A stretch of DNA of 64,000 nt from Octopus vulgaris (lineage: Eukaryota). Where the stretch lies: positions 50,902,001 to 50,966,000 of the forward strand of contig OX597830.1 in the NCBI GenBank assembly GCA_951406725.2, read 5' to 3'. Within the stretch, counting starts at the first letter, position 1; the number at the start of each line of letters is the position of its first letter. A model generated the notes under the pieces. The model saw nothing but the letters and a program-made list of their open reading frames with translations. It did no database searches and was not told where the DNA came from. The translations under genes and the position numbers were made by a program. Positions 1-60,341 of this stretch are shown in pieces.

Positions 1-116
1 AAAGAGTACGATAGAATAAGTACTAGGCTTACAAAGAATAAGTCCTGGGGTCGATTTGCTCGACTAAAGGCGGTGCTCCACCATGGCCGCAGTCAAATGA
101 CTGAAACACGTAAAAG
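1..116 (+). mobile_element. SINE 3' portion (family 1 tail), truncated by window start
   Basis: gatagaataagtact..ggggtcgatttgctcgactaaaggcggtgctcc..gcagtcaaatgactgaaac recurs at ~5950, ~31930, ~37720 and inverted at ~58260. Confidence 0.85.
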
Positions 117-2797: not shown

Positions 2798-2800
<3 letters not shown>

Positions 2801-3026
2801 CGAAGAGCTCCGCTCGAAACGTTAAACCCTCCTTCTTCCCTTCTTTTCTGAGCGAGGACGTGGAACAAATATAGTATTATTGGACGCTCAGGAAAGGAAA
2901 GAAGGAGGGTTTAACGTTTCGAGCGGAGCTCTTCGTCAGAAACATAGGAGAAGGAAAGATACAGAGAAGGGAAGACAGAGGAAAAAAAAATCGCCAACGG
3001 TACACACGCGGCCACATTTTGAATCT
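2798..3026 (-). mobile_element. Short Penelope-like (pLTR-type) element, family A, with inverted partial duplication, within (TA)n
   Basis: 2798-2854 is the reverse complement of 2885-2939. Homologous copies lie at 32760-32970 and 52008-52252. It carries a hammerhead motif. Confidence 0.7.
2909..2943 (-). ncRNA. Minimal type I hammerhead ribozyme motif
   Basis: Minus strand reads gttt-CTGACGA-a-gagc-tcc-gctc-GAAAC-GTT-aaac: stem I gttt/aaac, stem II gagc/gctc, palindromic AACGTT stem III. Confidence 0.75.
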
Positions 3027-3089: not shown

Positions 3090-3156
3090 ATATATATATA
3101 ACATTATTGGTGAATTGAAGAAATGGAGCTGAACGCAGATTGAACAGAAATCGTTT

Positions 3157-3250
3157 TATTTCATTCTACACGTGTTTCGAAAGGCACAAATTACCAAAAT
3201 CCGATGGAATAATGGGACCATATTGTGTCTTTCTCTTCAGGAAGAAAATA
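3157..3250 (-). ncRNA. Type I hammerhead ribozyme motif (mirror copy of 4200-4293)
   Basis: Reverse complement of the 4200-4293 motif. Confidence 0.75.
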
Positions 3251-4199
3251 GGAAATCCGTTGGAAAAACAAAAACAGAACAGAGGCGGAGCAAAAACAAA
3301 TCGAACTATGCTCCTAAGAGCCCATGGCGAAACTGTTTATCAGTGTATGTTGAGAACCGGTGGCTGAAGAATTCAACGGGTCAGGCATCGGTCAATCATG
3401 TGGGTGAGGGGGCGTAGATGTTCTTTGTGACCGAGAATAAAGTTCTGACTATTTAAGGAATATTGGATGTTTTATAAGGGGCGAGAAAAAATCTACTTAG
3501 AGACGTGTGTGTGTGTATACTGTTCTATATACGTGTGTGTTGGCGTAGGGGTAGAAAACATTTTTTGTGTACGTGTGTGCGTTTGATCGTTCGGCTGTCA
3601 GTGGCTACTGCCGTGATGACCGTTGGGTGGCAGAAAAAAAATATACATCATGTTTTATGTGTGTGTGTGTTCTCATCTAAACCTGCCTTGTCAAGGAAAC
3701 CCCCCGCTGTGAAAAAACCAAGCCCCGTTTGTCTTACAGGAGTAATTCCCCTTGCAGTGGTTAATCGTAGATATCTTAAAGGCTATTTCAGAATTTGTTA
3801 CCAAGGGCTATGGGTGCCGGTATTATTTATAAACGCTATTTAAAAGCCAGATAAGTGTAACGCCGCCAATGGGGGCATCGAAAAGCCGACTGTAAAAGCC
3901 CGTTTACCATCCGGCCTCTGGCAAACAAAATATGGAAGAGTTCGGAGACACAAAGTCTCTTTTTCTCGCCCCTTATAAAACATCCAATATTCCTTAAATA
4001 GTCAGAACTTTATTCTCGGTCACAAAGAACATCTACGCCCCCTCACCCACATGATTGACCGATGCCTGACCCGTTGAATTCTTCAGCCACCGGTTCTCAA
4101 CATACACTGATAAACAGTTTCGCCATGGGCTCTTAGGAGCATAGTTCGATTTGTTTTTGCTCCGCCTCTGTTCTGTTTTTGTTTTTCCAACGGATTTCC

Positions 4200-4293
4200 T
4201 ATTTTCTTCCTGAAGAGAAAGACACAATATGGTCCCATTATTCCATCGGATTTTGGTAATTTGTGCCTTTCGAAACACGTGTAGAATGAAATA
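4200..4293 (+). ncRNA. Type I hammerhead ribozyme motif with extended stem II
   Basis: tattttcttc-CTGAAGA-gaaagacacaa...ttgtgcctttc-GAAAC-acgt-GTA-gaatgaaata. Stem I has 9/10 pairs, stem II 10/11 pairs, and stem III is palindromic ACACGTGT. Confidence 0.8.
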
Positions 4294-4506
4294 AAACGAT
4301 TTCTGTTCAATCTGCGTTCAGCTCCATTTCTTCAATTCACCAATAATGTTCTAATTTCAATTATCCGCACCAACGCACGGTTGCAACACCATATGGTTGT
4401 ACCTCCAGCCGTGCTGTTTTACTGCTGTGATTTTTGCTACTAAGGTATCGGTTAAACTTTTGATTAATCTACTACAAGATTATTCATCTTTCTATTTCAC
4501 ATAAAT

Positions 4507-5448: not shown

Positions 5449-5479
<31 letters not shown>

Positions 5480-5522
5480 CAAGTCAAAAATAGAAAATGG
5501 TAAAATAATTTTATAGTGAACA

Positions 5523-5566
5523 TTTCAGTACCGGTTTCGGTCATTTTGAGACCTTTTCAACTGTAA
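5523..5566 (-). ncRNA. Hammerhead ribozyme motif, U3-A8 core variant (family D)
   Basis: Minus strand reads ttacag-TTGAAAA-ggtc-tcaaaat-gacc-GAAAC-cg-GTA-ctgaaa. The host fragment ~5474-5780 sits between TA tracts. Confidence 0.65.
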
Positions 5567-5794
5567 CGATTAAATAATTAAATTTAGAAAAATTAGAAGA
5601 AAAGTTTTTTTAAAGGAATATTTCTATAGTAGTGTTCAGATATAAGTGGCATTCTGCCTTTCTCTGACTCCCTTGTTTGCACTTGTGTGTTGGAGGTCGT
5701 TGTGAGTTCTTGGTAAGGTAGTAGAAGAAGAAGGCTGATGAGGAAAGGGGGTGGGAAAATCTGGGAGTGCCCTGATGGTCGTATTTATATATGT

Positions 5795-5858: not shown

Positions 5859-6090
5859 ATTTGTGTGTCTGTGTTTGTCTCCCTAGCATTGCTTGACAAC
5901 CGATGCTGATGTGTTTACGTTCCCGTCACTTAGCGGTTCGGCAAAAAGAGACCGATAGAATAAGTACTGGGCTTACAAAGAATAAGTCCCGGGGTCGATT
6001 TGCTCGGCTAAAGGCGGTGCTACAGCATGGCCGCAGTCAAATGACTGAAACAAGGAAAAGAGTAAAAGAGTAAAAGAGAGTAAAAGAGTA
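5840..6090 (+). mobile_element. SINE family 1 3' half after (TA)n(TG)n, with (GAGTAAAA)n tail
   Basis: Near-identical to the reverse complement of 58243-58460. Confidence 0.9.
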
Positions 6091-15281: not shown

Positions 15282-15380
15282 ACACGACAGGCACAAGATC
15301 CCGATAGAATATGTACTAGATTTACAAACAGTATGTCCTGGGTTCCATTTGGTCGACAAAAGGCGGTGCTCCAGAAATAC
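14935..15380. mobile_element. Two degenerate SINE family 1 tail fragments in opposite orientation around a microsatellite
   Basis: ttttacttgtttcagtcatttgac (minus, ~14944) and ccgatagaata..ggcggtgctccag (plus, ~15301-15374). Confidence 0.7.
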
Positions 15381-19124: not shown

Positions 19125-19315
19125 AAGCCTAAAGTTGGCAGGAGGGGTTAATCGATTATACCGACCCCAGTATTTCACTGGAACTTAATTGATCGATCCT
19201 GAAAGGATGAAAGGCAAAGACGACCTCGGTAGAATCTGAACAGAGAACGTAGCGGCGGGCGAAATTCCGCCAAACATTTCATCCGGCGCGCTAAAGGTTC
19301 TTCCATGTCGCCGGC
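19125..19315 (-). mobile_element. SINE family 2
   Basis: cgaccccag..gaaaggatgaaaggcaaag..gacctcgg matches 55624-55850. Confidence 0.8.
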
Positions 19316-20249: not shown

Positions 20250-20640
20250 ATTTCAAATTTTGGCAAATTTTATCGACCCTGAAAGGATGAAATGTACAGT
20301 CGACCTCGACAGAATTTAAACTCAAATGGTAAAGACGGACGAAATGCCGCGAAGCATTCTGCCCGGCGTGCTAATGATTCTTCCAGCTCACTGCCTTTAA
20401 TCGCGCTGATATTAGTAATTTGTAATAAGGCAGCGAGTCGCTAGACTCTCTAGCAATGCTGGGCCAAATGCTTAGCGTCATTTCGTCCGTCTTTACATTC
20501 TGAGTATATATTAGCCAAGTTCGACTTCGCCATTCTTCATTTTGTGGCCCATAAAATAAGTATCAGTTGAGCACTCGGGTCCATGTAGCCGATTTACACT
20601 CTGCCACCAAAAAGTTGGCCTTATACAAAAATTTGAAACC
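20250..20640. mobile_element. Head-to-head pair of SINE family 2 copies
   Basis: Minus copy at ~20250-20398 and plus copy at ~20428-20640. Confidence 0.75.
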
Positions 20641-23773: not shown

Positions 23774-24624
23774 AGGCTCAGGAAAAATAAAAGAGAGAGA
23801 GTTAAGTTTAAGAAGAGATGAAAAAGGAAGAGAGAGAAAAGCAGGGAGAGTGAACAGAGGAAAGGGAGAAGTATATATATACAATGAACGGTGTGTGTGT
23901 GTGTGGGGGTAGAGAGACAACAAAGACCTTCAAACAACAGAAGACAGCGATACTGAGAGAGAGACAGAAGTGTAATGTAAATAGACAGCGAGACGAAGAT
24001 GTGATGCAGATAAAGAGATAGAGAGATAGTGTAGAAAGACAAAGAAACGGGTAAAGAGAGGGAGAGAGAGTTTGGGGATAGAAAGACAGAAAGAGAAAGA
24101 AGTTAGAAACCAGAGAGACTGTGAAGTAGTAGAAAGAGGCAGAGAGAGAGAGAGATAGATAGATGATGATGATGAGGAGGAGGAGGAGGAGAAGGAGGGG
24201 AGAAAGAGAGAAGTGATGAGCTGGGGTCGAGGTGTTGTATGTTCTCATCAAAGATCATTTGTCTTTGTTACAATTATCTGATCTGAGGAATTTAACAATA
24301 AAGCATTATTTTTCCTTTTTTCTAATATTATCTGCATCCCATCACTATGTTATATAAAACTATCATACTATACCATTTTACACCAACGGCAGGGTATACC
24401 ACCAGTACTGTATACAAAACCACGGTAAAGCATACTATTGTATCACACCAGATGCCACAATAAATCGTATTGTCCATTCCACCACGTCATACCTTGCCAC
24501 TTCTCATCTCACAACAACATACTACACTAGTCTACAGTACACTGCAGCACAACACGCAGTACACTTGCACACTGCACTACAACATACTACAAAACACAAT
24601 ATTATATTGAATTTTTTTATATGG

Positions 24625-24830
24625 TGGCCAGGTAGCAGAATCGTTAGCACGCCGAGAAAAATGCTAAGCAGCACTTCGGCCGTCTTTACTCGTTGAGTTC
24701 ACATGCCATTGAGGTCGACTTTTTCTTTCACCTTTTCGATGTCGATAAAACAAGTACCAGTAATCGACTGGGGTCGATGTAATCGACTACCTCCCTAAAC
24801 CGCTGGCCTTGTGCCAAAATTTGAAATCGA
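24625..24830 (+). mobile_element. SINE family 2
   Basis: gcagaatcgttagcacgcc..gaggtcgact..gtcgataaa..ggggtcgatgtaatcgact. Confidence 0.8.
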
Positions 24831-25194: not shown

Positions 25195-25574
25195 ATGCCA
25201 TACACTAGAACACCACGGAACACCATATCGTACAACACGTTATACATCACCACATTACATATTACTAACCTACAGGAAACCACACCTCATCACTTTACAC
25301 CAAATCGCACATCTTCCCCAAACAACACTGAACTGTATTAAATCACAATACATCATACTACATCACACGACATGGCACCAAAACACACTAAGCCACGACA
25401 CATCCTGTCACTTTATGATGCCACCCAGATAACAGTGACCCCAGCCTACGCCTCAATGACACAGGCCATCAAAAAGCATTACAGCATATCAGGGACCTCC
25501 ACACGATATGAGCAACAACTTGCACTTCTCCAAAGAGCTTCCTGCCTATCATTCTCTTCGTTTTTGGAAAGTAG

Positions 25575-25765
25575 CACGTTGGCAGAATCGTTAGCACGCC
25601 GGGTAAAATACTTAGCGGATTTCATTCTTCTTTACGCTCTAGATCAAATTCTGCCGAGGTCGACTTGGACTGTCACACTTCCGGGGACTGAAAATAAATA
25701 TGAATTGAACACAGGAGTCGATGCAATCGACTTAGCCCCCTCCCACGAAATCGCCAAAGTTTAAA
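25575..25765 (+). mobile_element. SINE family 2
   Basis: tggcagaatcgttagcacgccggg..caaattctgccgaggtcgact. Confidence 0.8.
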
Positions 25766-30000: not shown

Positions 30001-30094
30001 GCTATCAAAAACCTACGTTACAATCCTTGCACGTGTAACTGAAAGAGGAATGATTGCCTCCAATGTTACTAAGTTTTCTAATGTTGTTTTGGTT

Positions 30095-30305
30095 CCAAAT
30101 TTTGGCAAAAGGTCAACAATTTCTAGGAAGTGGGGTAACTCGATTACATCGACCTAGGTGTTCAACTGTTACTTATGTTATCGACTCTGGAAGGATGGAC
30201 GGCAAAGTGTACCTCAGCGAAATTTGAACTCAGAACGTAAAGACACATGAATATCCGCCAAGCATTTTGCCCGGTGTGCTAACAATTCTGCCAACTTGCC
30301 ACCTT
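30095..30305 (-). mobile_element. SINE family 2
   Basis: Similar to 55624-55850. Confidence 0.8.
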
Positions 30306-31724
30306 TTTCTAATGGAATATTCCAAAGTTCAATCTATCTGTATTTCTGTTAATTTTAACTCTAAATCTACCGACATATCTCTTCTAAAGAGAGACCACTC
30401 ATTACCTTTATATAGAAACTATTCTTTTGGGTTTTTGGATTTGGTTTGCAAGATTCTTTATATGAGTTCGTGTGTTGAAGCATAATCTGTTGTGTCTGGG
30501 GAGAGTCATTTTCTTTTTGTGCCTTATTATGTAACACACTCACCGGTAAAAATTTCCACTTTTTTCTTATTATTATTGTCCTAAAATTTTCGTTGCGTCT
30601 TGCAACCTTTCCAATCAAGACGCAACGAAAACTTTTAGGACAATAAAAATAAGAAGATAGTGGAAATTTTACCGGTGAGTGTATTACATTATAAGGCTCA
30701 AAAAGAAAATGACTCTCCCCAAACACAACAGAATATTCTTTTGGGATTACTAGACAATACAGAGATGCACAGTCACTAAATATTTCATCACTGTTGCGAA
30801 TCTTCAGACTGACGAACGTTTGTAAAATAAACGATGCGTTTAATCGATTCAGAATAGTGGAATCATTCCTTATTTGTTTATGTCTAAATTCTGTGGTCTC
30901 AGCTATGAGCTGGCATGCGGATGCGGATGCGATACGTGAAGTCGTGAAGTTAATTTTCTGTATAGAAGAGAATATGATAAAAACAATAACATTGGCTTCA
31001 TCAACTTGTGAGTTTGTGCTGTGTGTATAAATAGTGGTGGCAGAATGCCATATGAGAAGACATGGACCTGTGTTCGAGTGATGCAAGGAGAATCTATATT
31101 TTGTAAGATAGAGGTTGTTATTGAACAGATAACATTTTGCTAGAGAAAATATTAATTTATGGGACAGAGACCAGAATGCAACGGAAGAGATAGGAAGGAA
31201 GCGGTTCAAATATAGTAGAATAGTAATCGATAGATGAGTGATAAAGTGATACAGAGTGAACGTGTCAATGTAGGATAGGAGATAAAAGACAGAAGGTGCA
31301 CGTACACACACACACACACTCAGACACTCACACACCACATATGCTACATACACGCATACATACATACAAATATACATAAGTGCGTACGTACGAACATAAG
31401 TACATACATACATACATACATACATACATACATGCACGCATACATACATACATACATACATACATACATACATACATACATACATACATACATACATACA
31501 TGCACGCATACATACATACAAACATATATACATACATAAATACAAACATACAAAAGTACCTTGTTGTTGATGTTGAAGCTCCAATGGCGGAGACTTGGAT
31601 CTAGGTGAGAAACCGGTTCTTTCTCTATTGGCAAGAAATCTTGAAATAAACTGAATAATGACATACATACATAAATACATATATACATACAAAAATACCC
31701 TGTTGAGGTTGTTAAACTTGGGTC

Positions 31725-31849: not shown

Positions 31850-32040
31850 TGTGTTTGTCGCCCCAACATCGCTTGATAATCGGTGGTGGTTTGCTTACGT
31901 CCCCGTAACTTAGCGGTGCGGCAAAAGAAAGGATAGAATAAGTACTAGGCTTACAAACAATAAGTCCTGGGGTCGATATGCTCGACTAAAGGCGGTGCTC
32001 CTGCACGGCCACATTCAAATGGCTGAAACAAGTAAAAGAA
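31850..32040 (+). mobile_element. SINE family 1 3' half
   Basis: Matches 5870-6060. Confidence 0.85.
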
Positions 32041-32128
32041 ATATATATATACATACATACAAATATGTATATATATATATATATATATTTAAAAAAGGAG
32101 ATGTGGAACACGAGTTGTGATATATAAA

Positions 32129-32374
32129 AAAGGAAATGAAGACAATGCTGACAAAATAATTTAAGTAATGTAAGTAATTTAATTAGGTGAAAGTTCTTTT
32201 TACCGGTTGCGCATTTGTTATGCTTATCAAAAGTTTTTTCCTCTTATCTGACGGTCAGATAAGAGGAAAAAACTTTTGAAAAGCATAACAAATGCGCAAC
32301 CGGTAAAAAGAACTTTCACCTAATTAAATTACTTACATTACTTAAATTATTTTGTCATCATTTTCTTCATTTCC

Positions 32375-32377
<3 letters not shown>
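32129..32377. repeat. Near-perfect 249-bp palindrome containing hammerhead-like motif in each arm (family E)
   Basis: 124-bp arms around a 1-nt centre (32253), with 3 mismatches by eye. The motif is acttt-TTGA[A/T]AA-gcat-aacaa-atgc-GCAAC-cg-GTA-aaaag. Confidence 0.85.
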
Positions 32378-32761: not shown

Positions 32762-32970
32762 CCTCGACCTCGTGAGTACCGCCAGCGATTTTTTTCCTCT
32801 GTCTTCCCTTCTCGGGATCTTTCCTTCTCCTGTGTTTCCGACGAAGAGCTCCGCTCGAAACGTTAAACCCTCCTTCTTCCCTTGTTTCCTGAGCGTCCAA
32901 TAGTACTTTATTTGTTCCACGTCTTCGCGTTGGTGTGTTTATTTTGTGTTTTCTTGTTTGGATTAACTTT
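32760..32970 (+). mobile_element. Penelope-like family A copy in (TA)n; hammerhead at 32834-32868 with U4C change
   Basis: gttt-CCGACGA-agagctccgctc-GAAAC-GTT-aaac, homologous to 2855-3010. Confidence 0.75.
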
Positions 32971-34769: not shown

Positions 34770-35225
34770 TTCTTTCTTTTACTTCGTTCAGTCGTTTGGT
34801 TACGGCCAAGCTGAAGCACCACCTTTAGTCGAAAAAATCGACCCATTAACTCATTCTTTGTAAGCCTAATACTTATTCTACCGGGCTCTTTTGCGGAAAC
34901 GCTAAGTTATGGGGACGTAAATAAACCAACATCGGTTGTCAAGCGATGGTGGGGAGGATAAACACAGACACATAGACAAATATACACACACACATACATG
35001 TATGTATATATATGTATATATGTGTACATATATATATGTGTATGTCTGTGTGTATGTATATATATATACGAAGGGCTTCTTTCAGTTTCCGTCTACCAAG
35101 TCCACTCGCAAGGCTTTGGTCGGCCCGAGGCTATAGTAGAAGACACTTCCCAAGGTGCCACGCAGTGGGACAGAACCCGGAACCATGTGGTTTGTAAGCA
35201 AGCTTCTTACAACACAGCCACGCTG
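34770..35225 (-). mobile_element. Full-length SINE family 1 (tRNA/CORE-like head, internal microsatellite, tail)
   Basis: Same layout as 58243-58678. Confidence 0.85.
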
Positions 35226-41458: not shown

Positions 41459-41590
41459 ATTTATTTTATAGAAGGAGCTTCTACAGGACTAGAACTGTTT
41501 CATTCAAATGAAATCATCAGGAAGCTTCCTGATGATTTCATTTGAATGAAACAGTTCTAGTCCTGTAGAAGCTCCTTCTATAAAATAAAT
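41459..41590. repeat. Perfect 132-bp palindrome (family F) in (TA)n
   Basis: 66-bp arms centred on gaag|cttc (41524/41525). The element continues to ~41658. Confidence 0.9.
41523..41573 (+). ncRNA. Type I hammerhead ribozyme motif (identical copy on minus strand 41476-41526)
   Basis: agcttc-CTGATGA-tttc-attt-gaat-GAAACAG-ttctagtc-CTGTA-gaagct. The first stem II pair is U-U. Confidence 0.7.
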
Positions 41591-43638: not shown

Positions 43639-44425
43639 AGCCTCAACCTATCAAAATCCGTCGTTCATGAGAACCTGGTAAAGCTTGGGTACACAAATCG
43701 CCACGATGTTTGGGTACCATATGAGTTGAGTGAGAAGAACCTTTTGGATCGCATATCCATCTGTGATTCGCTTTATAAACGGAATGAAAACGCGTCTTTT
43801 TTAAAGCAAATTGTGTTAGGTGATGAGAAATGGATTATCTACCGAAATGTTTAGAGAAACCGATCCTGGAGTAAGCGACATGAGCCACCATTAGCCACCC
43901 CAAAAGCGGGTCTTCATCCTAAAAATCTTGTTTTGTGTCTGGTAGGACTGGAAAGAAATTCTGTACTATGAGCTTTTCCCAAATAACCAGACAATTAATT
44001 CTGAGAAATACTGCACACACCTGGACGAGTTAAAAGCAGCAATTCAAGAGAAACTCCCAGAATTGGCCAATAGGAAGGGTGTTGTTTTCCAACATGATAA
44101 TGCAAGACCGCATGCTTTTTTGGGAAGCAGACCAAAATTGCCGCAGATATTGCTCCTTTGGATTTCCACTTTTTTAGGTCTCTGCAGAATAGTCTTAATG
44201 GTAAAAATTTCAAATCCTTGGATGACGTAAAAAGTTACCCTGATGAATTCTTTGCCATGAAACAACCTCAATTCTGGGAAGAGGGTATTTTCAGTTGAAA
44301 GGAAAGATGGAGACGCACTGTGCAACAAAGTGGTACATATCTGGTAGATTAAAAATGTAATGGCAAGTATTTATTGACCTTTTTCTTGCCTTTAAAAATC
44401 AGCACGAACTTTCTGGACAACCCAA
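43639..44425 (+). pseudogene. Mariner transposon relic (5'-truncated, internally deleted) with 3' TIR
   Basis: Motifs WVPYEL, GDEKW, QHDNARPH and PDIAPLDFHFF, with stops and frameshifts. It ends gcacgaactttctggacaacccaa|TA. Confidence 0.92.
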
Positions 44426-45400: not shown

Positions 45401-45974
45401 AGAATTCCTTATTCTACCACGATTGTCGTAATTGTCTCCCACCCTCATGCCCCTTTTCTCAACCTCCCCATCTTCATCACCGATATACTCGCTGTCATTA
45501 TCTACATGATAGACAACTCTCTACACCCATCCCTATACCCTTGCTTTTTACGAAACATTCTTGTCGTCTCCATGGCTGTCAACGTCTTACATTGTATTTA
45601 TATTTATTGCCTAGAATAAGGCCGCAATCTTTTAATTGAGTAATTAAATGCTAATTGTTGTCTATTTATATCAGCCGTTATGTGTTGCAGATATATGTAT
45701 TGTGAAAGTATATAGTATACACACCCAGACACCCACTCACTTAATACATATATACATTCACAAACAAATACATATATACATACACAAATATATACGTACA
45801 TACAAAAATACACAGGCACATGCATGATTGAAAATGATGAGACGATATGTGTGTGTATACGTATCTATATTCTTATATGTATATATATATATTTATGTAC
45901 ACATATAAACACAACACACACAAGTACACACATATATTTGAAAGCTCATAATAGACAATGGTATTTCCGCGCAT

Positions 45975-46211
45975 TAAGGCAGCGAAGGGATGGCAGAATC
46001 GTTAGCACGCCAAGCGAAATGCTTAGCGGTATTTCGTTTGCCGTTACGTTCTGAGTTCAAATTCTGCCGAGGTCGGCTTTGCCTTTCATCCTTTCGGGGT
46101 CGATAAATTAAGTACCAGTTATGCACTGGGGTCGATGTAATCGACTTAATCCGTTTATCTGTCCTTGTTTGTCCTCTCTGTGTTTAGCCCCTTGTGGGTA
46201 GTAAAGAAATA
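45975..46211 (+). mobile_element. Full-length SINE family 2 with perfect 15-bp TSD
   Basis: GGTATTTCCGCGCAT at 45960-45974 and 46212-46226. The central gcctttcatcctttcggggtcgataaa..gtaccag resembles the Meta-SINE domain. Confidence 0.92.
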
Positions 46212-46295
46212 GGTATTTCCGCGCATGTATGTGTATGTCTATGCGTATGTATGTGTGTGTACACAGAGAGAGGGGTGAGCGAGAGAAGTAGATAA

Positions 46296-51972: not shown

Positions 51973-52007
<35 letters not shown>

Positions 52008-52009
<2 letters not shown>

Positions 52010-52252
52010 AATCCAGACATGAAAACACAGAGAAAACACAACAACGCGAGGACGTGGAACAAGTATGGTGTTATTGGACGCTCAGGAAAGGAAGGAAAGA
52101 AGGAAGGTTTAACGTTTCGAATGGAGCTCTTCGTCAGAAACATAGAAAAAGGAAAGATCGAAAGAAGGGAAAACGGAGGAAAAAAATCGCCAACGGTACA
52201 CGCGCGGTGACATTTTGAATATATATATATATTCAAAATGTGACCGTTGGCG
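52008..52252 (-). mobile_element. Penelope-like family A copy in (TA)n; hammerhead at 52107-52141
   Basis: Minus strand reads gttt-CTGACGA-agagctccattc-GAAAC-GTT-aaac. A short inverted copy of the end lies at 52231-52252. Confidence 0.75.
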
Positions 52253-53608: not shown

Positions 53609-55439
53609 TTATATACATATATGTATACACGCACACACACTTAGATTCTTTGAAGTACTGAGAGAAAAGGTCCACTTGAAATGAAGGGGAATTACTGAAG
53701 TTAATCCCAAGCTAAATGTCATCAATATTTCACTGAAATCCTTATTAAGTGGAGCGGAATTGCAATGTCTTTCATCTCTCAATGTTCTATAAATTACCTT
53801 CCATTCACCAATCATCTCCTGTACGGGTCTCCAAGATGCAGTGTATCTCAGTTGTGGTTCTTGATGTTACTATCGTTGTTGTTACTTTTGAAATTGTTGT
53901 TTCTGTTGTTCTTTAGCTCCAAGTCGATCCTATCTCCCTAATCAATCGTATTTTCTGATCAAACCATCATATTTCAAAACGTCGTGATCCCCATAATTAC
54001 ACGATTCAATATGCCCTTTTTAAAAGGTTGCAGAGCGGTTTTCAAGGAGATTTAGCTGTTATTTATAATATGACGATCTTTCACGTTGGTTTGAGCCAAC
54101 TTCGCGTTGCAGATATTTGCGGTTGATTTAATTAACATTAATTAACTGTACGATAGACTTGATTCACTGAATAATTGTGATCCAGTGCCTAAACGAGAAC
54201 CACCTCATGAAGGTCTTGAAAGGTATGGGTTGCTTTCTCTTCTTTGAAAATTAAATTCATTATTCTCTGCATTGAAAGATTTCAGGGACCGGATTAATGA
54301 ATTAAGTGAGAGTTAATTTCGGTGATTAATTTTATTTAAAAATGTGCTGGGTCACGCTAGAAAGGGAAATTATAGCAGGATCTACCAGTTTTAGCGAAGA
54401 CATACCAGAAATTAGAGAAAGAGAGAATCAAATTATTAGAAATGATAAACAGAAAGGGCATTGATACTCTGCGCTTTTGATGTGCTGGTGTTGGGCGAGA
54501 ATAATTCTTGACGACTTCTTCGATACCATACTCGAAGAACGCACTGTTCGTGACAGAGCGGGTACACTTATACACGAGGGGGTCGATAGACGTTCGATGG
54601 TGGAAGGCGATCGATGTGTAAGTATGGCAACAACATGACCATTCTTATCGATATGTAGTATCCAATTCTAAGCAGATGTGTGTGTATTTCATCAATGGTA
54701 TTTCACCGAATCATTCGCAGCTCTCGGTCGAAGAAGCAAAGTGCTACAGAAAACCAATTTCCTCAGATAGAGTAGTGAATGCGTTGGGTGGCTGTGATGT
54801 GGACGAATCACCATGGTTGGACATTGTGGACTAGGAACATTACTGTTGCATTTCAAACCTTTTTTCACTGTCTTATCAGCAGTCGGTTTCAACTGATTGT
54901 GATTGCAAAATTGAAGCATCTGATGGGTGTTAAAGGTATGGAAATAGGACCCAAAAATGATGTTAATGTTAAGCAAATTTTAGTTTATAACCCTGCTGAA
55001 CACAGGCACGATTACTTTATAAAAGTAGTCGCCAAGACATTGCCGCGTATCGTCGGTAATTCAGTCGGAGGTAGGCGAAATTTTACGAATCCGGGTATGC
55101 TTATTCATGACAATCTATACCTCACGTGATACACACCTGTTTTTAGTAGGGCCCTGATCAATTTAGATCGTAATTACTACATTGATCGTCCTCTATACGA
55201 TGGATATACCTATTAATATAGCAGGCAAAGTCTACTAAATTTACAGCTTACTGTCATAAAAAGTGGATGGACACAGGAATATTTTAGTGTAAGGTATACT
55301 GGTTGGAAAGATTGACCCCGTTGTCTTGGCTGAAAAGATATTGATCAGGCTTGATATGGGACAAACCAATAACACCATCTTACATCACCAGAAATAAGTC
55401 CGAATGTGATCATGTGATCATTCGTCAGATAGAAATGGC

Positions 55440-55850
55440 TATTTCTTTACTACCCACAAGGAGCTAAACACAGAGGGGACAAACAAGGACAGACAAACGG
55501 ATTAAGTCGATTACATCGACCCCAGTACGTAACTGGTACTTATTTAATCGACTCCGAAAGGATGAAAGGCAAAGTCGACCTCGGCGGAACTTGAACCCAG
55601 AACGCAGCGAGAGACGAAATACCTATTTCTTTACTACCCACAAGCGGCTAAACACAGAGAGGACAAACAAGGACAGACAAACGCATTAAGTCGATTATAT
55701 CGACCCCAATGCATAACTGGTACTTAATTTATCGACCCCGAAAGGATGAAAGGCAAAGTCGACCTCGGCGGGATTTGAACTCAGAAGATAACGGCAGACG
55801 AAATTCCGCGAAGCATTTCGCCCGGCGTGCTAATGATTCTGCCAGCTCAC
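55440..55850 (-). mobile_element. SINE family 2 tandem dimer (full copy plus 5'-truncated repeat)
   Basis: A unit of ~185 bp is repeated, with a degenerate TSD cgtcagatagaaatggc / cgtcagctagaaatagc. Confidence 0.9.
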
Positions 55851-57002
55851 CGTCAGCTAGAAATAGCGGTCGAAATTGCAAGCTGTCGTAAAAGAGATAA
55901 ACATTGGTTAAATGGCCCTGGAAAAAAATGGGTTTATCTTAGCTGGAGTTCTTGCGATCATATACATTTTCGATCACAGTTAACCTGGAGCTAAACGACT
56001 CTACCCCACAAGACAATAAGGGAGCCTCTTCGATATTGTTGTACGTACTGGAAATAGCAGCCAGATTATCTAAGTGCTCAACCTGCAGTCCTAAGTAAGG
56101 AAATAATACATTTGGATAATGTCGTCCGAGGCATCTTAAAATGTGTAGTATCGGCTGGAATACCTTAGATTAGAGCTTAGGCCTGCTCGAGTCTTGGTAA
56201 CCCAGGGATAAACAGCGATAACAGATAAATACAAGAATATTTTTGAATAAAATACGTGATTTATTTTGAGAGCGAAATAACAATTCATTATGTTGGCCTC
56301 GTCCTACAATAGGGTTAGGAAATTTACAATTAAAACGAAATTCGATTGAAATTTAAAATGAGATTATTTTAATTTTCCTCTAGAAGTTGGTAATATTCCA
56401 GAAATGGTGCATTTCTGTTTTATCAATTAATATTTTATTGATCTTCGTTTACTTTTGGTCTATCGATTCCATTTATAATTCATGCTGCAATTTTTACAGT
56501 CTGCATGCGGGTCAGCTTGTGATCGTTAAGTTTTAAACACACGTGCCAGTAAGTGTACGCAGTTTAGTTGTGGCGGTGATGTTGGTGAGACTGGTGGTAG
56601 TGTTGGTGTTGTTGGTGTTGGTGGTGTTGCTGTTGGCGGCGGAGTTGAAGTTGCCGGTAGTGGTGGTGGTGGTGGTGGGGGTGGGGGTGCTGGTGGAGGG
56701 GTGTTGATATTATGTTGATGATGTGGGTGATAGTGTGTTGGTGTTGGTATTGGTGGGATGGTTGGAGTCGGTGTCGATTTTAGTTCCGATGATGGCTAGC
56801 CTATTTCTTGCTCGATGCTTCAATGCCAACTCTTCGTAGACAATTACAACTCCGACATAAACATAATTGTCATTATACATACACATGTGAGTGCGCACAC
56901 ACACACAAAAAGACATCCAGGCACACACATATATATATATGCATATAAATATATAGATGTATATAGATATATAGATGTATATACATATATATATATATGC
57001 TG

Positions 57003-57588
57003 CTGAGACCCCCTTTGGTCATGAATGATGATGGGATTGCACCTAGAAAGTTACCCTCCCAAGCACAAGTCCGGGCAAGGCTGTTTATGGAAGACCAGCA
57101 GTCGCTCATGCATACCTTTTTCTTTATTGTCCACAAGGGGCTAAACACAAAGGGGACAAACAAGGACAGACATAGGTATTCAGTCTATTACATCGACCCC
57201 AGTGCGTAACTGGTACTTAATTTATCGACCCCGAAAGGATGAAAGGTAAAGTCACCTTCGGCGGAATTTGAACTCACAACGTAACGCAGACGAAATACGG
57301 CTAAGCATTTCGCCCGGCGTGCTAACGTGTCTGCCAGCTCGCCGCTTTAAGCTCACCTATGCATACCGGCCTCCCCTCTCCACGCCACCAGTGTTATCCA
57401 AGGGAAAGGTGACGATACAGCTTGGCACTTGTGACGTCGCAACTCATTTCTACAGCTGAGTGAACTGGAGCAATGTGAAATAAAGTTTCTTGCTCAAGAA
57501 CACAACACGCAGCCCGGTCCCAGATTCGAACCTCACAATCTCACGACCGTAAGCTCGACGCTCTAACCACTAAGCCATGCGCCTTCAC
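57003..57588 (-). mobile_element. SINE family 4 interrupted by nested SINE family 2 (57117-~57350)
   Basis: The host matches 40925-41247; atgcatacc is duplicated at 57108 and 57359. Confidence 0.85.
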
Positions 57589-58242: not shown

Positions 58243-58456
58243 TTTTACTCTTTTACTCTTTTACTTGTTTCAGTCATTTGACTGCGGCCATGCTGGAGCA
58301 CCGCCTTTAGTCGAGCAAATCGACCCCGGGACTTATTCTTTGTAAGCCCAGTACTTATTCTATCGGTCTCTTTTGCCGAACCGCTAAGTGACGGGGACGT
58401 AAACACACCAGCATCGGTTGTCAAACAATGCTAGGGGGACAAACACAGACACGCAA

Positions 58457-59940: not shown

Positions 59941-60000
59941 AGTTTGGAAGAGGTTCTTGGAAGTGGATGCGTGGAGTTCAATGATATAATAATATATATG

Positions 60001-60276
60001 CATATGTAGGCACAGGACGTCACGAAACGTGTACAACAAAAAATACGAAGTACGAGTATATGGAATATGAACTATTTTTTCGAACAACGAAAGACACAAA
60101 CCGGAAAACAAGACAAACAACGCAAAAAACGAGATACGCTTTCGATAAAACAGTTGATCCTGCGTTTGTTTTCCATTTGGGTCTTTCGTTGTTCGAAAAA
60201 AATAGTTCATATTCCGTGTACTCGTACATCATATTTTTCGTTGTACACGTTTCGTGATGTCCTGTGCCAACATATG
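60001..60276. mobile_element. Inverted-repeat element (~110-bp arms) in (TA)n
   Basis: catatgtaggcacaggacgtcacgaaacgtgtacaac.. is mirrored at 60166-60276. Confidence 0.8.
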
Positions 60277-60341
60277 GATATATATATACGTATAAATGTA
60301 AGTATGTATATATGCGTATATTTATATATTATTTATATCAT

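What the first reader, a model, noticed from the sequence alone, without database searches (positions are those of the whole stretch)
32129..32377. 249-bp palindrome with twin non-canonical hammerheads (UUGANAA / GCAA)
Both arms carry stem I, stem II (gcat/atgc), palindromic ACCGGT and GUA, but with U3-A8 and GCAA in place of GAAA. The only mismatch in the inner ~100 bp of the arms is at N7, the freely variable core position. It is either a new core variant or an inactive copy duplicated after mutation.
Basis: partly seen in the sequence, partly recalled or inferred. Interest (0 to 1): 0.7.

Follow-up and report, generated by a model that had tools for sequence, protein, structure and literature searches.

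The report
Broken ribozyme pair from retrotransposon insertion
This 249-base mirror-image sequence holds two back-to-back copies of a damaged self-cutting RNA (hammerhead) motif; it is likely an ordinary inverted scar left by a Penelope-type jumping gene and is predicted not to cut, so it is probably not a new kind of ribozyme.

Summary
The palindrome is real: 124-bp arms, a 1-nt spacer, 3 mismatches. The hammerhead-like motif is not chance (2 to 978 of 100,000 shuffled arms, strict to loosest descriptor).

U3-A8 is a known natural variant, including in Penelope-like elements (PLEs). A motif at 5560-5529 has the same UUGAAAA core and ACCGGU palindrome but GAAA. Head-to-head twin hammerheads with canonical cores also sit at 3.1-4.4 kb and 41.5 kb, so the layout recurs here and matches known inverted PLE insertions.

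The two motifs lie on opposite strands, and a read-through RNA folds into one 124-bp hairpin. The N7 mismatch is no evidence of selection (P about 0.5).

Verdict: likely a decayed PLE hammerhead, copied after the damage. Whether GCAA is a subfamily consensus stayed untested: no eukaryotic genome collection was searchable.

The parts
32129..32252 (-). Left arm, 124 bp; likely a 5'-truncated PLE end reading leftward
32254..32377 (+). Right arm, 124 bp; likely a 5'-truncated PLE end reading rightward
32248..32258 (.). Centre CTGAC-G-GTCAG: head-to-head junction with 1-nt spacer (32253); proposed fold-back point
   Evidence: sequence; fold-back role inferred
32273..32277 (+). CTTTT: pairs with AAAAG (32306-32310) as a 5-bp helix, but its last two T's are U3/U4; the motif is 2 nt short of having both
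32276..32282 (+). Core box 1, U3 U4 G5 A6 N7(A) A8 A9
32283..32295 (+). Stem II GCAT/ATGC with G10.1-C11.1 and a 5-nt loop; P about 0.9 in an isolated arm
32296..32299 (+). Core box 2, GCAA (C13 at 32297 instead of A13)
32299..32305 (+). Palindromic ACCGGT (dimer-type stem III) and A17; a cut would fall after 32305
32306..32377 (+). 72-nt AT-rich stretch from the would-be cut site to the element end
32201..32230 (-). Mirror motif: TTGATAA core (N7=U at 32226), stem II, GCAA (C13 at 32209), ACCGGT, A17 at 32201
32120..32128 (.). Left flank, short (TA)n then AA
32378..32441 (.). Right flank, AA then long (TA)n; likely target
5529..5560 (-). Comparator, not part of the locus: complete U3-A8 minimal hammerhead with ACCGGT and GAAA

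Best explanation
The 249-bp palindrome is two head-to-head copies of one 124-bp sequence, each with a hammerhead-type motif carrying U3-A8, GCAA and a 2-bp stem I; it is likely the inverted, 5'-truncated end of a Penelope-like retrotransposon insertion whose ribozyme was likely already damaged in the source copy, and it is predicted not to cleave. Steps: (1, inferred) the element's endonuclease nicked a (TA)n tract and reverse transcription started about 72 nt downstream of the hammerhead cut site. (2, inferred) cDNA stopped 22 nt upstream of the core and folded back at the short CTGAC-N-GTCAG palindrome, or two cDNAs annealed there, giving the second arm. (3, shown) both arms share C13 and the 2-nt shortfall and differ at only 3 of 124 positions; that the lesions came from the template is inferred. 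(4, shown) the motifs lie on opposite strands, so they cannot form the same-strand dimer that an ACCGGU stem III needs. (5, predicted) a transcript crossing the locus meets the antisense arm first and forms a 124-bp hairpin. Its only likely output, if transcribed, is double-stranded RNA.
For: Motif beyond chance. It matches the PLE minimal-hammerhead plan: G10.1-C11.1, palindromic stem III, U-rich 5' and AU-rich 3' flanks. An inverted 5'-truncated copy next to the 5' end is typical of PLEs, and opposite-strand hammerhead pairs 100-700 bp apart were seen in S. mansoni. The same outward-reading layout with canonical cores occurs at 41459-41590 (0-nt spacer) and 3097-4353 (469-nt spacer). The 5560 motif keeps GAAA, is the window's best or near-best non-self match to the arm (shuffle p 0.005-0.025), gets a sub-threshold Hammerhead_HH9 hit (E 0.012) and forms stem I with P 0.78-0.98 at short flanks, against 0.00 here. 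A13 changes cost 10-100-fold (citing earlier work); gaaa-to-gCaa was built as a laboratory mutant in Perreault 2011 Table S1 (its result was not seen). Hammerhead mutants do not block PLE insertion in vitro. P(G10.1-C11.1) in the whole palindrome is 1e-16.
Against: No RT or GIY-YIG sequence ties the arm to a PLE: none in 145 of 420 open frames scanned. No second copy of this family was found (window; proteins; prokaryotic genomes). The folding test discriminates weakly: canonical controls at 2939, 4210 and 41529 also gave low stem I probabilities, and 5560 fell to 0.00 with long flanks. Two-bp helices I are known in Drosophila, Culex and Oikopleura PLEs, though G-C. Tail similarity to 5560 alone is not significant (p 0.07), so its kinship rests largely on the core by which it was picked. 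The Anolis PLE hammerhead cleaves only with protein, so weak-looking motifs can work.
Confidence: 0.72

Rival explanations
1. Same PLE origin, but the inserted copy was intact (GAAA); the lesions arose later in one arm and were copied to the other by arm-to-arm repair. GCAA is then private to this locus.
For: A 1-nt-spacer palindrome can template its own repair (general knowledge, recalled). The inner 104 bp has 1 mismatch and the outer 20 bp has 2.
Against: That gradient is not significant (P 0.096). The N7 mismatch lies between the two shared lesions. The 30.5-30.7 kb palindrome has drifted to 87%, so homogenisation is not general here.
Confidence: 0.12
2. GCAA is the selected consensus of a PLE subfamily and the U3-A8/C13 core cleaves as a protein-assisted dimer from tandem copies elsewhere; this locus is a silenced by-product.
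For: Young arms (2.4% apart) sharing C13 imply a recently mobile source with GCAA. Stem II and the dimer helix are intact and predicted to form at short flanks. Natural core variants exist; protein assistance is shown for one PLE.
Against: C13 is not among the natural variants named in the section read; all 56 box-2 entries printed for the 2014 PLE alignment are GAAA, one with an extra A before it. Stem I is defective, and the 5560 motif has GAAA.
Confidence: 0.06
3. A MITE or foldback DNA transposon reduced to its terminal inverted repeats, with a captured or accidental hammerhead-like motif.
For: MITEs can lose all internal sequence; TA flanks on both sides; a mariner-type transposase fragment lies at 43946-44227.
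Against: With a TA target duplication the two outermost bases would mismatch (AA/AA), where TIRs are usually best kept (recalled). The motif is rare by chance, and the same layout carries canonical hammerheads elsewhere in the window.
Confidence: 0.05
4. A host hairpin-RNA gene (miRNA or endo-siRNA precursor) kept for its double-stranded structure.
For: Sub-threshold miRNA model hits, best 71.9 bits; near-perfect hairpin.
Against: All hits are far below gathering scores and reflect pairing only. No conservation or expression data.
Confidence: 0.03
5. An assembly or library fold-back artefact.
For: Perfect palindromes can be artefacts (recalled).
Against: Three arm mismatches; both arms stop at the same base with different flanks beyond.
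Confidence: 0.02

Closest known systems
Minimal type I hammerheads of metazoan PLEs, U3-A8 variant of S. mansoni Cercyon (Cervera & de la Pena 2014, PMC4209133)
   Same: UUGAAAA / UUGAUAA box (S. mansoni 3 and 4 in Fig. S3), G10.1-C11.1, palindromic stem III needing a dimer, opposite-strand pairs close together.
   Different: GCAA instead of GAAA; no extra base after A9; stem I of 2 U-A pairs against a 3-bp consensus; 4-nt palindrome insert as in Aedes and Marsupenaeus rather than the bare form.
Inverted pLTR / 5'-truncated inverted PLE copies (Craig et al. 2021, PMC8557442)
   Same: Inverted truncated copy directly at the 5' end; microsatellite target.
   Different: Both copies are cut to the same point (1-nt spacer) and no ORF is left.
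Poseidon PAc of Anolis (Frangieh et al. 2024, PMC11167929)
   Same: Element end lies tens of bases past the hammerhead cut (about 85-92 nt there, from +26 to +111-118; 72 nt here); AT-rich targets; hammerhead dispensable for insertion in vitro.
   Different: PAc has a canonical, protein-assisted core; no protein is available for this family.
Natural core variants (Perreault et al. 2011, PMC3088659)
   Same: U3-A8 covariation known in nature and active in vitro.
   Different: The variants named include C6, A6a, U13a and U15.1-A16.1, not C13; core mutants in repeats were treated as cryptic, rejected hits.
Non-LTR retrozymes (bioRxiv 10.64898/2026.07.22.740005)
   Same: Non-coding, type I hammerhead, PLE-related.
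   Different: Retrozymes are head-to-tail tandems on one strand; this is head-to-head.

Membership tests
Hammerhead ribozyme (PLE minimal type I) | Box 1 CUGANGA or the U3-A8 covariant | tested here: met
   TTGA(A/T)AA in both arms, but only if stem I is cut to 2 bp
Hammerhead ribozyme (PLE minimal type I) | Box 2 GAAA (G12 A13 A14 A15.1) | tested here: not met
   GCAA in both arms
Hammerhead ribozyme (PLE minimal type I) | Stem II closed by G10.1-C11.1 | tested here: met
   4 bp, P 0.9-0.97 in isolated arm at short flanks
Hammerhead ribozyme (PLE minimal type I) | Palindromic stem III from A15.1 to U16.1, then H17 | tested here: met
   ACCGGT then A; intermolecular P 0.92-1.0 at short flanks, 0.03-0.14 with the full tail
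Hammerhead ribozyme (PLE minimal type I) | Stem I of 3 or more bp in catalytic register | tested here: not met
   2 U-A pairs, P 0.00; 2-bp G-C helices have precedent
Hammerhead ribozyme (PLE minimal type I) | Second copy on the same strand for the dimer | tested here: not met
   Copies are on opposite strands; no other copy in 64 kb
Hammerhead ribozyme (PLE minimal type I) | Self-cleavage | not testable with these tools
   needs an assay
Hammerhead ribozyme (Rfam clan CL00010) | Covariance-model match | tested here: inconclusive
   None for the arm; controls: 5560 sub-threshold, canonical 41.5 kb arm none, so the models are insensitive to this class
Penelope-like element | RT plus GIY-YIG ORF | tested here: inconclusive
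   None in 145 of 420 frames scanned; not expected in a 124-bp truncated end
Penelope-like element | Hammerhead-type motif near the 3' end | tested here: met
   72 nt from the end; degenerate
Penelope-like element | 5' truncation with adjacent inverted copy | tested here: met
   Head-to-head, motifs reading outward; truncation itself inferred
Penelope-like element | AT-rich or (TA)n target | tested here: met
Penelope-like element | Dispersed family linked to full-length tandem copies | not testable with these tools
   No eukaryotic genome collection; indirect searches empty
MITE / TIR element | Terminal inverted repeats matching to the last base inside a target duplication | tested here: inconclusive
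   Arms are inverted, but the two bases next to the TA tracts mismatch; a duplication cannot be told inside (TA)n
MITE / TIR element | Many uniform-length copies | not testable with these tools
   One copy in the window

The most novel reading that the evidence does not exclude
A recently mobile Penelope-like subfamily has fixed a U3-A8/C13 core with a slipped stem I and still cleaves as a dimer when its own protein holds the RNA. That would be a natural C13 hammerhead, tolerating a change that laboratories build as a core mutant, and one that GAAA-based descriptors would miss throughout animal genomes.
Probability: 0.06. Interest if true: 0.65.

Novelty: new member of a known kind. Interest (0 to 1): 0.2.

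Why it matters
As a single decayed copy it matters little. Two things could make it useful. First, both young arms share the lesions, so the source copy probably moved with a broken hammerhead; a genome-wide count would test in vivo whether PLEs need their ribozyme, which is open. Second, three or four head-to-head twins in 64 kb, with spacers of 0, 1, 13 and 469 nt, are a record of how PLE second strands are made, and each would give long double-stranded RNA if transcribed.

Tried and rejected
Rfam: no gathering hit in the window; only hairpin-driven miRNA hits locally; no hammerhead hit on the arm.

Reading GCAA against GAAA in other copies through translated proteins (Ala against Glu in one open frame): no hits in three searches. 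Exact 21-base pattern in prokaryotic genomes: 0. These blanks are expected for a eukaryotic non-coding repeat and say nothing about copy number.

Supplement searches for family motifs found nothing relevant: Craig 2021 (file cut when stored), Octopus vulgaris repeat paper (its library is on Zenodo, out of reach), Perreault 2011. One of two Cervera 2014 supplement files was not searchable. Lunse 2017 is not held, so its variant list stays unseen. Full-text search 'hammerhead'+'A13C' gave 0 papers; this single search does not show that C13 is unreported.

Rejected: N7 mismatch as a sign of selection; tail homology to 5560 (p 0.07); homology to the ACCGGT region of the 30.5 kb repeat (p 0.03-0.20 over 7 targets). 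Automatic alignments did not register the motifs. The first pattern search had one N too many and found nothing (corrected).

Rows dropped: 5 of 14 (two core mismatches, among them GGAA, TAAA and AAAA boxes) and 2 of 9 (13761, 33737; no palindrome insert, within the chance rate of 0.3-0.8 per window).

Full report
Observation. The window is microsatellite-rich, AT-rich, animal-like DNA; no host gene was found in 145 of 420 open frames scanned, only a mariner-type transposase fragment and weak low-complexity hits. It looks like cephalopod DNA, but that label is recalled and comes from no call. Positions 32129-32377 are a palindrome of two 124-bp arms around one G (32253), with mismatches 27, 105 and 110 nt from the centre. 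Both arms end at the same base and abut (TA)n. Read outward, each arm has 22 nt, then TTGA(A/T)AA, GCAT-aacaa-ATGC, GCAA, CCGG, T, A, then 72 nt to the end. Shuffled arms match in 2, 59 and 978 of 100,000 trials under tailored, relaxed and loosest descriptors; simulated windows gave 0 tailored hits in 80 runs and 0.3-0.4 relaxed hits per window. The motif is therefore hammerhead-derived.

Stem I is not intact together with the core. If the last two T's of CTTTT are U3 and U4, only two U-A pairs form. If CTTTT pairs with the AAAAG that starts exactly after A17, the helix is 5 bp but the core shrinks to GA(A/U)AA. Either way the motif is 2 nt short. Folding gives P 0.00 for the catalytic register at all three flank lengths; the 5560 motif gives 0.78-0.98 at short flanks and 0.00 at the longest. 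Canonical controls at 2939, 4210 and 41529 also scored low, so this test is only suggestive. Both arms thus share two lesions. The motifs are on opposite strands, whereas palindromic stem III hammerheads work as same-strand dimers. On either strand the antisense arm is transcribed first, and in the whole palindrome stem II has P 1e-16. The N7 mismatch is uninformative: P 0.46-0.55 that none of 3 mismatches falls on the 22-28 constrained positions.

Context inside the window. A broad scan gave 14 rows; 5 with two core mismatches were dropped. Of the 9 left, 7 have GAAA and 2 are this finding. They include a perfect 132-bp palindrome at 41459-41590 with CTGATGA...GAAA in each arm, and 394-bp identical inverted arms at 3097-3490/3960-4353 with CTGAAGA...GAAA-CACGTG-TA, both reading outward like the finding. 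A further 87% palindrome at 30478-30740 appears by eye to hold a truncated U3-A8-type remnant with GAAA (not found by the descriptor). The motif at 5560-5529 (-) has UUGAAAA, a G-C-closed 4-bp stem II, GAAA, the same ACCGGU and A17. It is the best or near-best non-self match to the arm (p 0.005-0.025) and has a sub-threshold Hammerhead_HH9 hit. It is a different family, not a copy: tails alone are not significantly alike. It shows what the intact form of this core type looks like here but does not give this family's consensus.

Mechanism. PLEs carry minimal type I hammerheads in their pLTRs, are 5'-truncated, and often have an inverted truncated copy directly at the 5' end. In the Anolis element, reverse transcription starts about 85-92 nt past the hammerhead cut, targets are AT-rich, both strands are nicked and extended, and hammerhead mutants still insert. 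The finding fits this: 3' ends outward in (TA)n, 72 nt past the cut site. A 1-nt spacer is too short for a loop, so I infer fold-back, or annealing of two cDNAs, at a short palindrome already in the template. The arms differ by 2.4% (95% interval 0.5-7.1%). If the organism is an octopus and the calibration of JC 0.09 = 25 My applies, that is about 3 My (0.7-10); this is conditional. Lesions shared by such young arms most simply came from the source RNA. GCAA may therefore recur in a subfamily (my estimate about even odds) and still be dead.

Is C13 functional? U3-A8 is known in nature and active, with about 1,300 hits in S. mansoni and UUGAAAA/UUGAUAA boxes in the 2014 alignment, whose 56 printed box-2 entries are all GAAA. 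A13 changes are reported to cost 10-100-fold (second-hand). Perreault 2011 lists primers for gaaa-to-gCaa mutants; that they were meant as knock-outs is my inference, and I did not see their result. PLE minimal hammerheads are already weak in vitro. Against this, one PLE hammerhead needs its protein and 2-bp helices I exist, so activity is not excluded. I put it at 0.06.

Works like versus is. The locus was made like a PLE inverted end (structure met; ORF and family link untested). The motif is hammerhead-derived but fails three defining features here (GAAA, stem I, same-strand partner), so it should not be filed as a hammerhead ribozyme.

What was read. PMC4209133: parts 1-2 of 4, supplement 2 passages and part 2 of 3. 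PMC11167929: parts 1-2 of 4. PMC3088659: sections 8 and 17, passages, supplement search, Table S1 part 1 of 2. bioRxiv 10.64898/2026.07.22.740005: part 1 of 5. Passages plus supplement searches: PMC8557442, PMC13282606. Passages only: PMC9901934 (plus its file list), PMC3907566, PMC4075628, PMC8969392, PMC6962438, PMC6155905, PMC6765202, PMC11014351. Lunse 2017: not held, seen only as a citation; its data, one Cervera supplement file and the Zenodo repeat library could bear on whether C13 or this family is already described.

Verdict. Real feature, known kind, most likely inactive. Interest 0.2; novel case 0.06 probable, 0.65 if true.

Noticed in passing
window 41459-41590: Perfect 132-bp palindrome with no spacer; each arm starts at stem I of a canonical CTGATGA/GAAA hammerhead with a U10.1-U11.1 mismatch and a hairpin stem III containing CTAG. 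Cleaner twin than the finding.
   Followed up: partly
window 3097-3490 and 3960-4353: 394-bp arms, 100% identical, 469-nt spacer; canonical hammerhead with a long stem II (55 nt) and CACGTG palindrome in each arm. Probably a very young PLE insertion.
   Followed up: partly
window 5473-5780 (-), motif 5560-5529: About 300-bp insert between (TA)n tracts with a complete U3-A8 minimal hammerhead; best assay control. A pyrimidine tract, CTAAT and CAG lie just before the core, like the intron end at helix I described for Drosophila Penelope (by eye, untested). An ATG in stem II opens a short hydrophobic frame.
   Followed up: partly
window 30478-30740: 87% palindrome with a 13-nt spacer; by eye a truncated U3-A8-type hammerhead remnant (G at position 6, GAAA intact) at the centre.
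   Followed up: partly
window 2799-2981, 32796-32968, 52006-52220: One repeat family with a bare minimal hammerhead (CTGACGA A GAGC-tcc-GCTC GAAA CG TT); the 32838 copy has C4, the 52.1 kb copy a broken stem II, and 2799-2981 is a tail-to-tail pair. Shows routine core decay in copies.
   Followed up: partly
window 59992-60285: About 89-bp inverted arms (91%) with a 116-nt spacer in a TA-rich flank; MITE-like, no hammerhead by descriptor.
   Followed up: no
window 43946-44227 (+): Mariner-type transposase fragment (Pfam Transposase_1, E 1.9e-9).
   Followed up: no
window 19145-19313, 20266-20638, 24623-24826, 25568-25751, 30093-30305, 45974-46219, 55432-55852, 57112-57350: Abundant 160-240-bp dispersed repeat, SINE-like, including a tandem pair at 55.4-55.9 kb and an inverted pair at 20.3-20.6 kb.
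   Followed up: no
window 1-116, 5879-6060, 15290-15374, 31861-32040, 34774-34956, 58257-58436: Second dispersed repeat family of about 180 bp; one copy lies 90 bp left of the palindrome.
   Followed up: no
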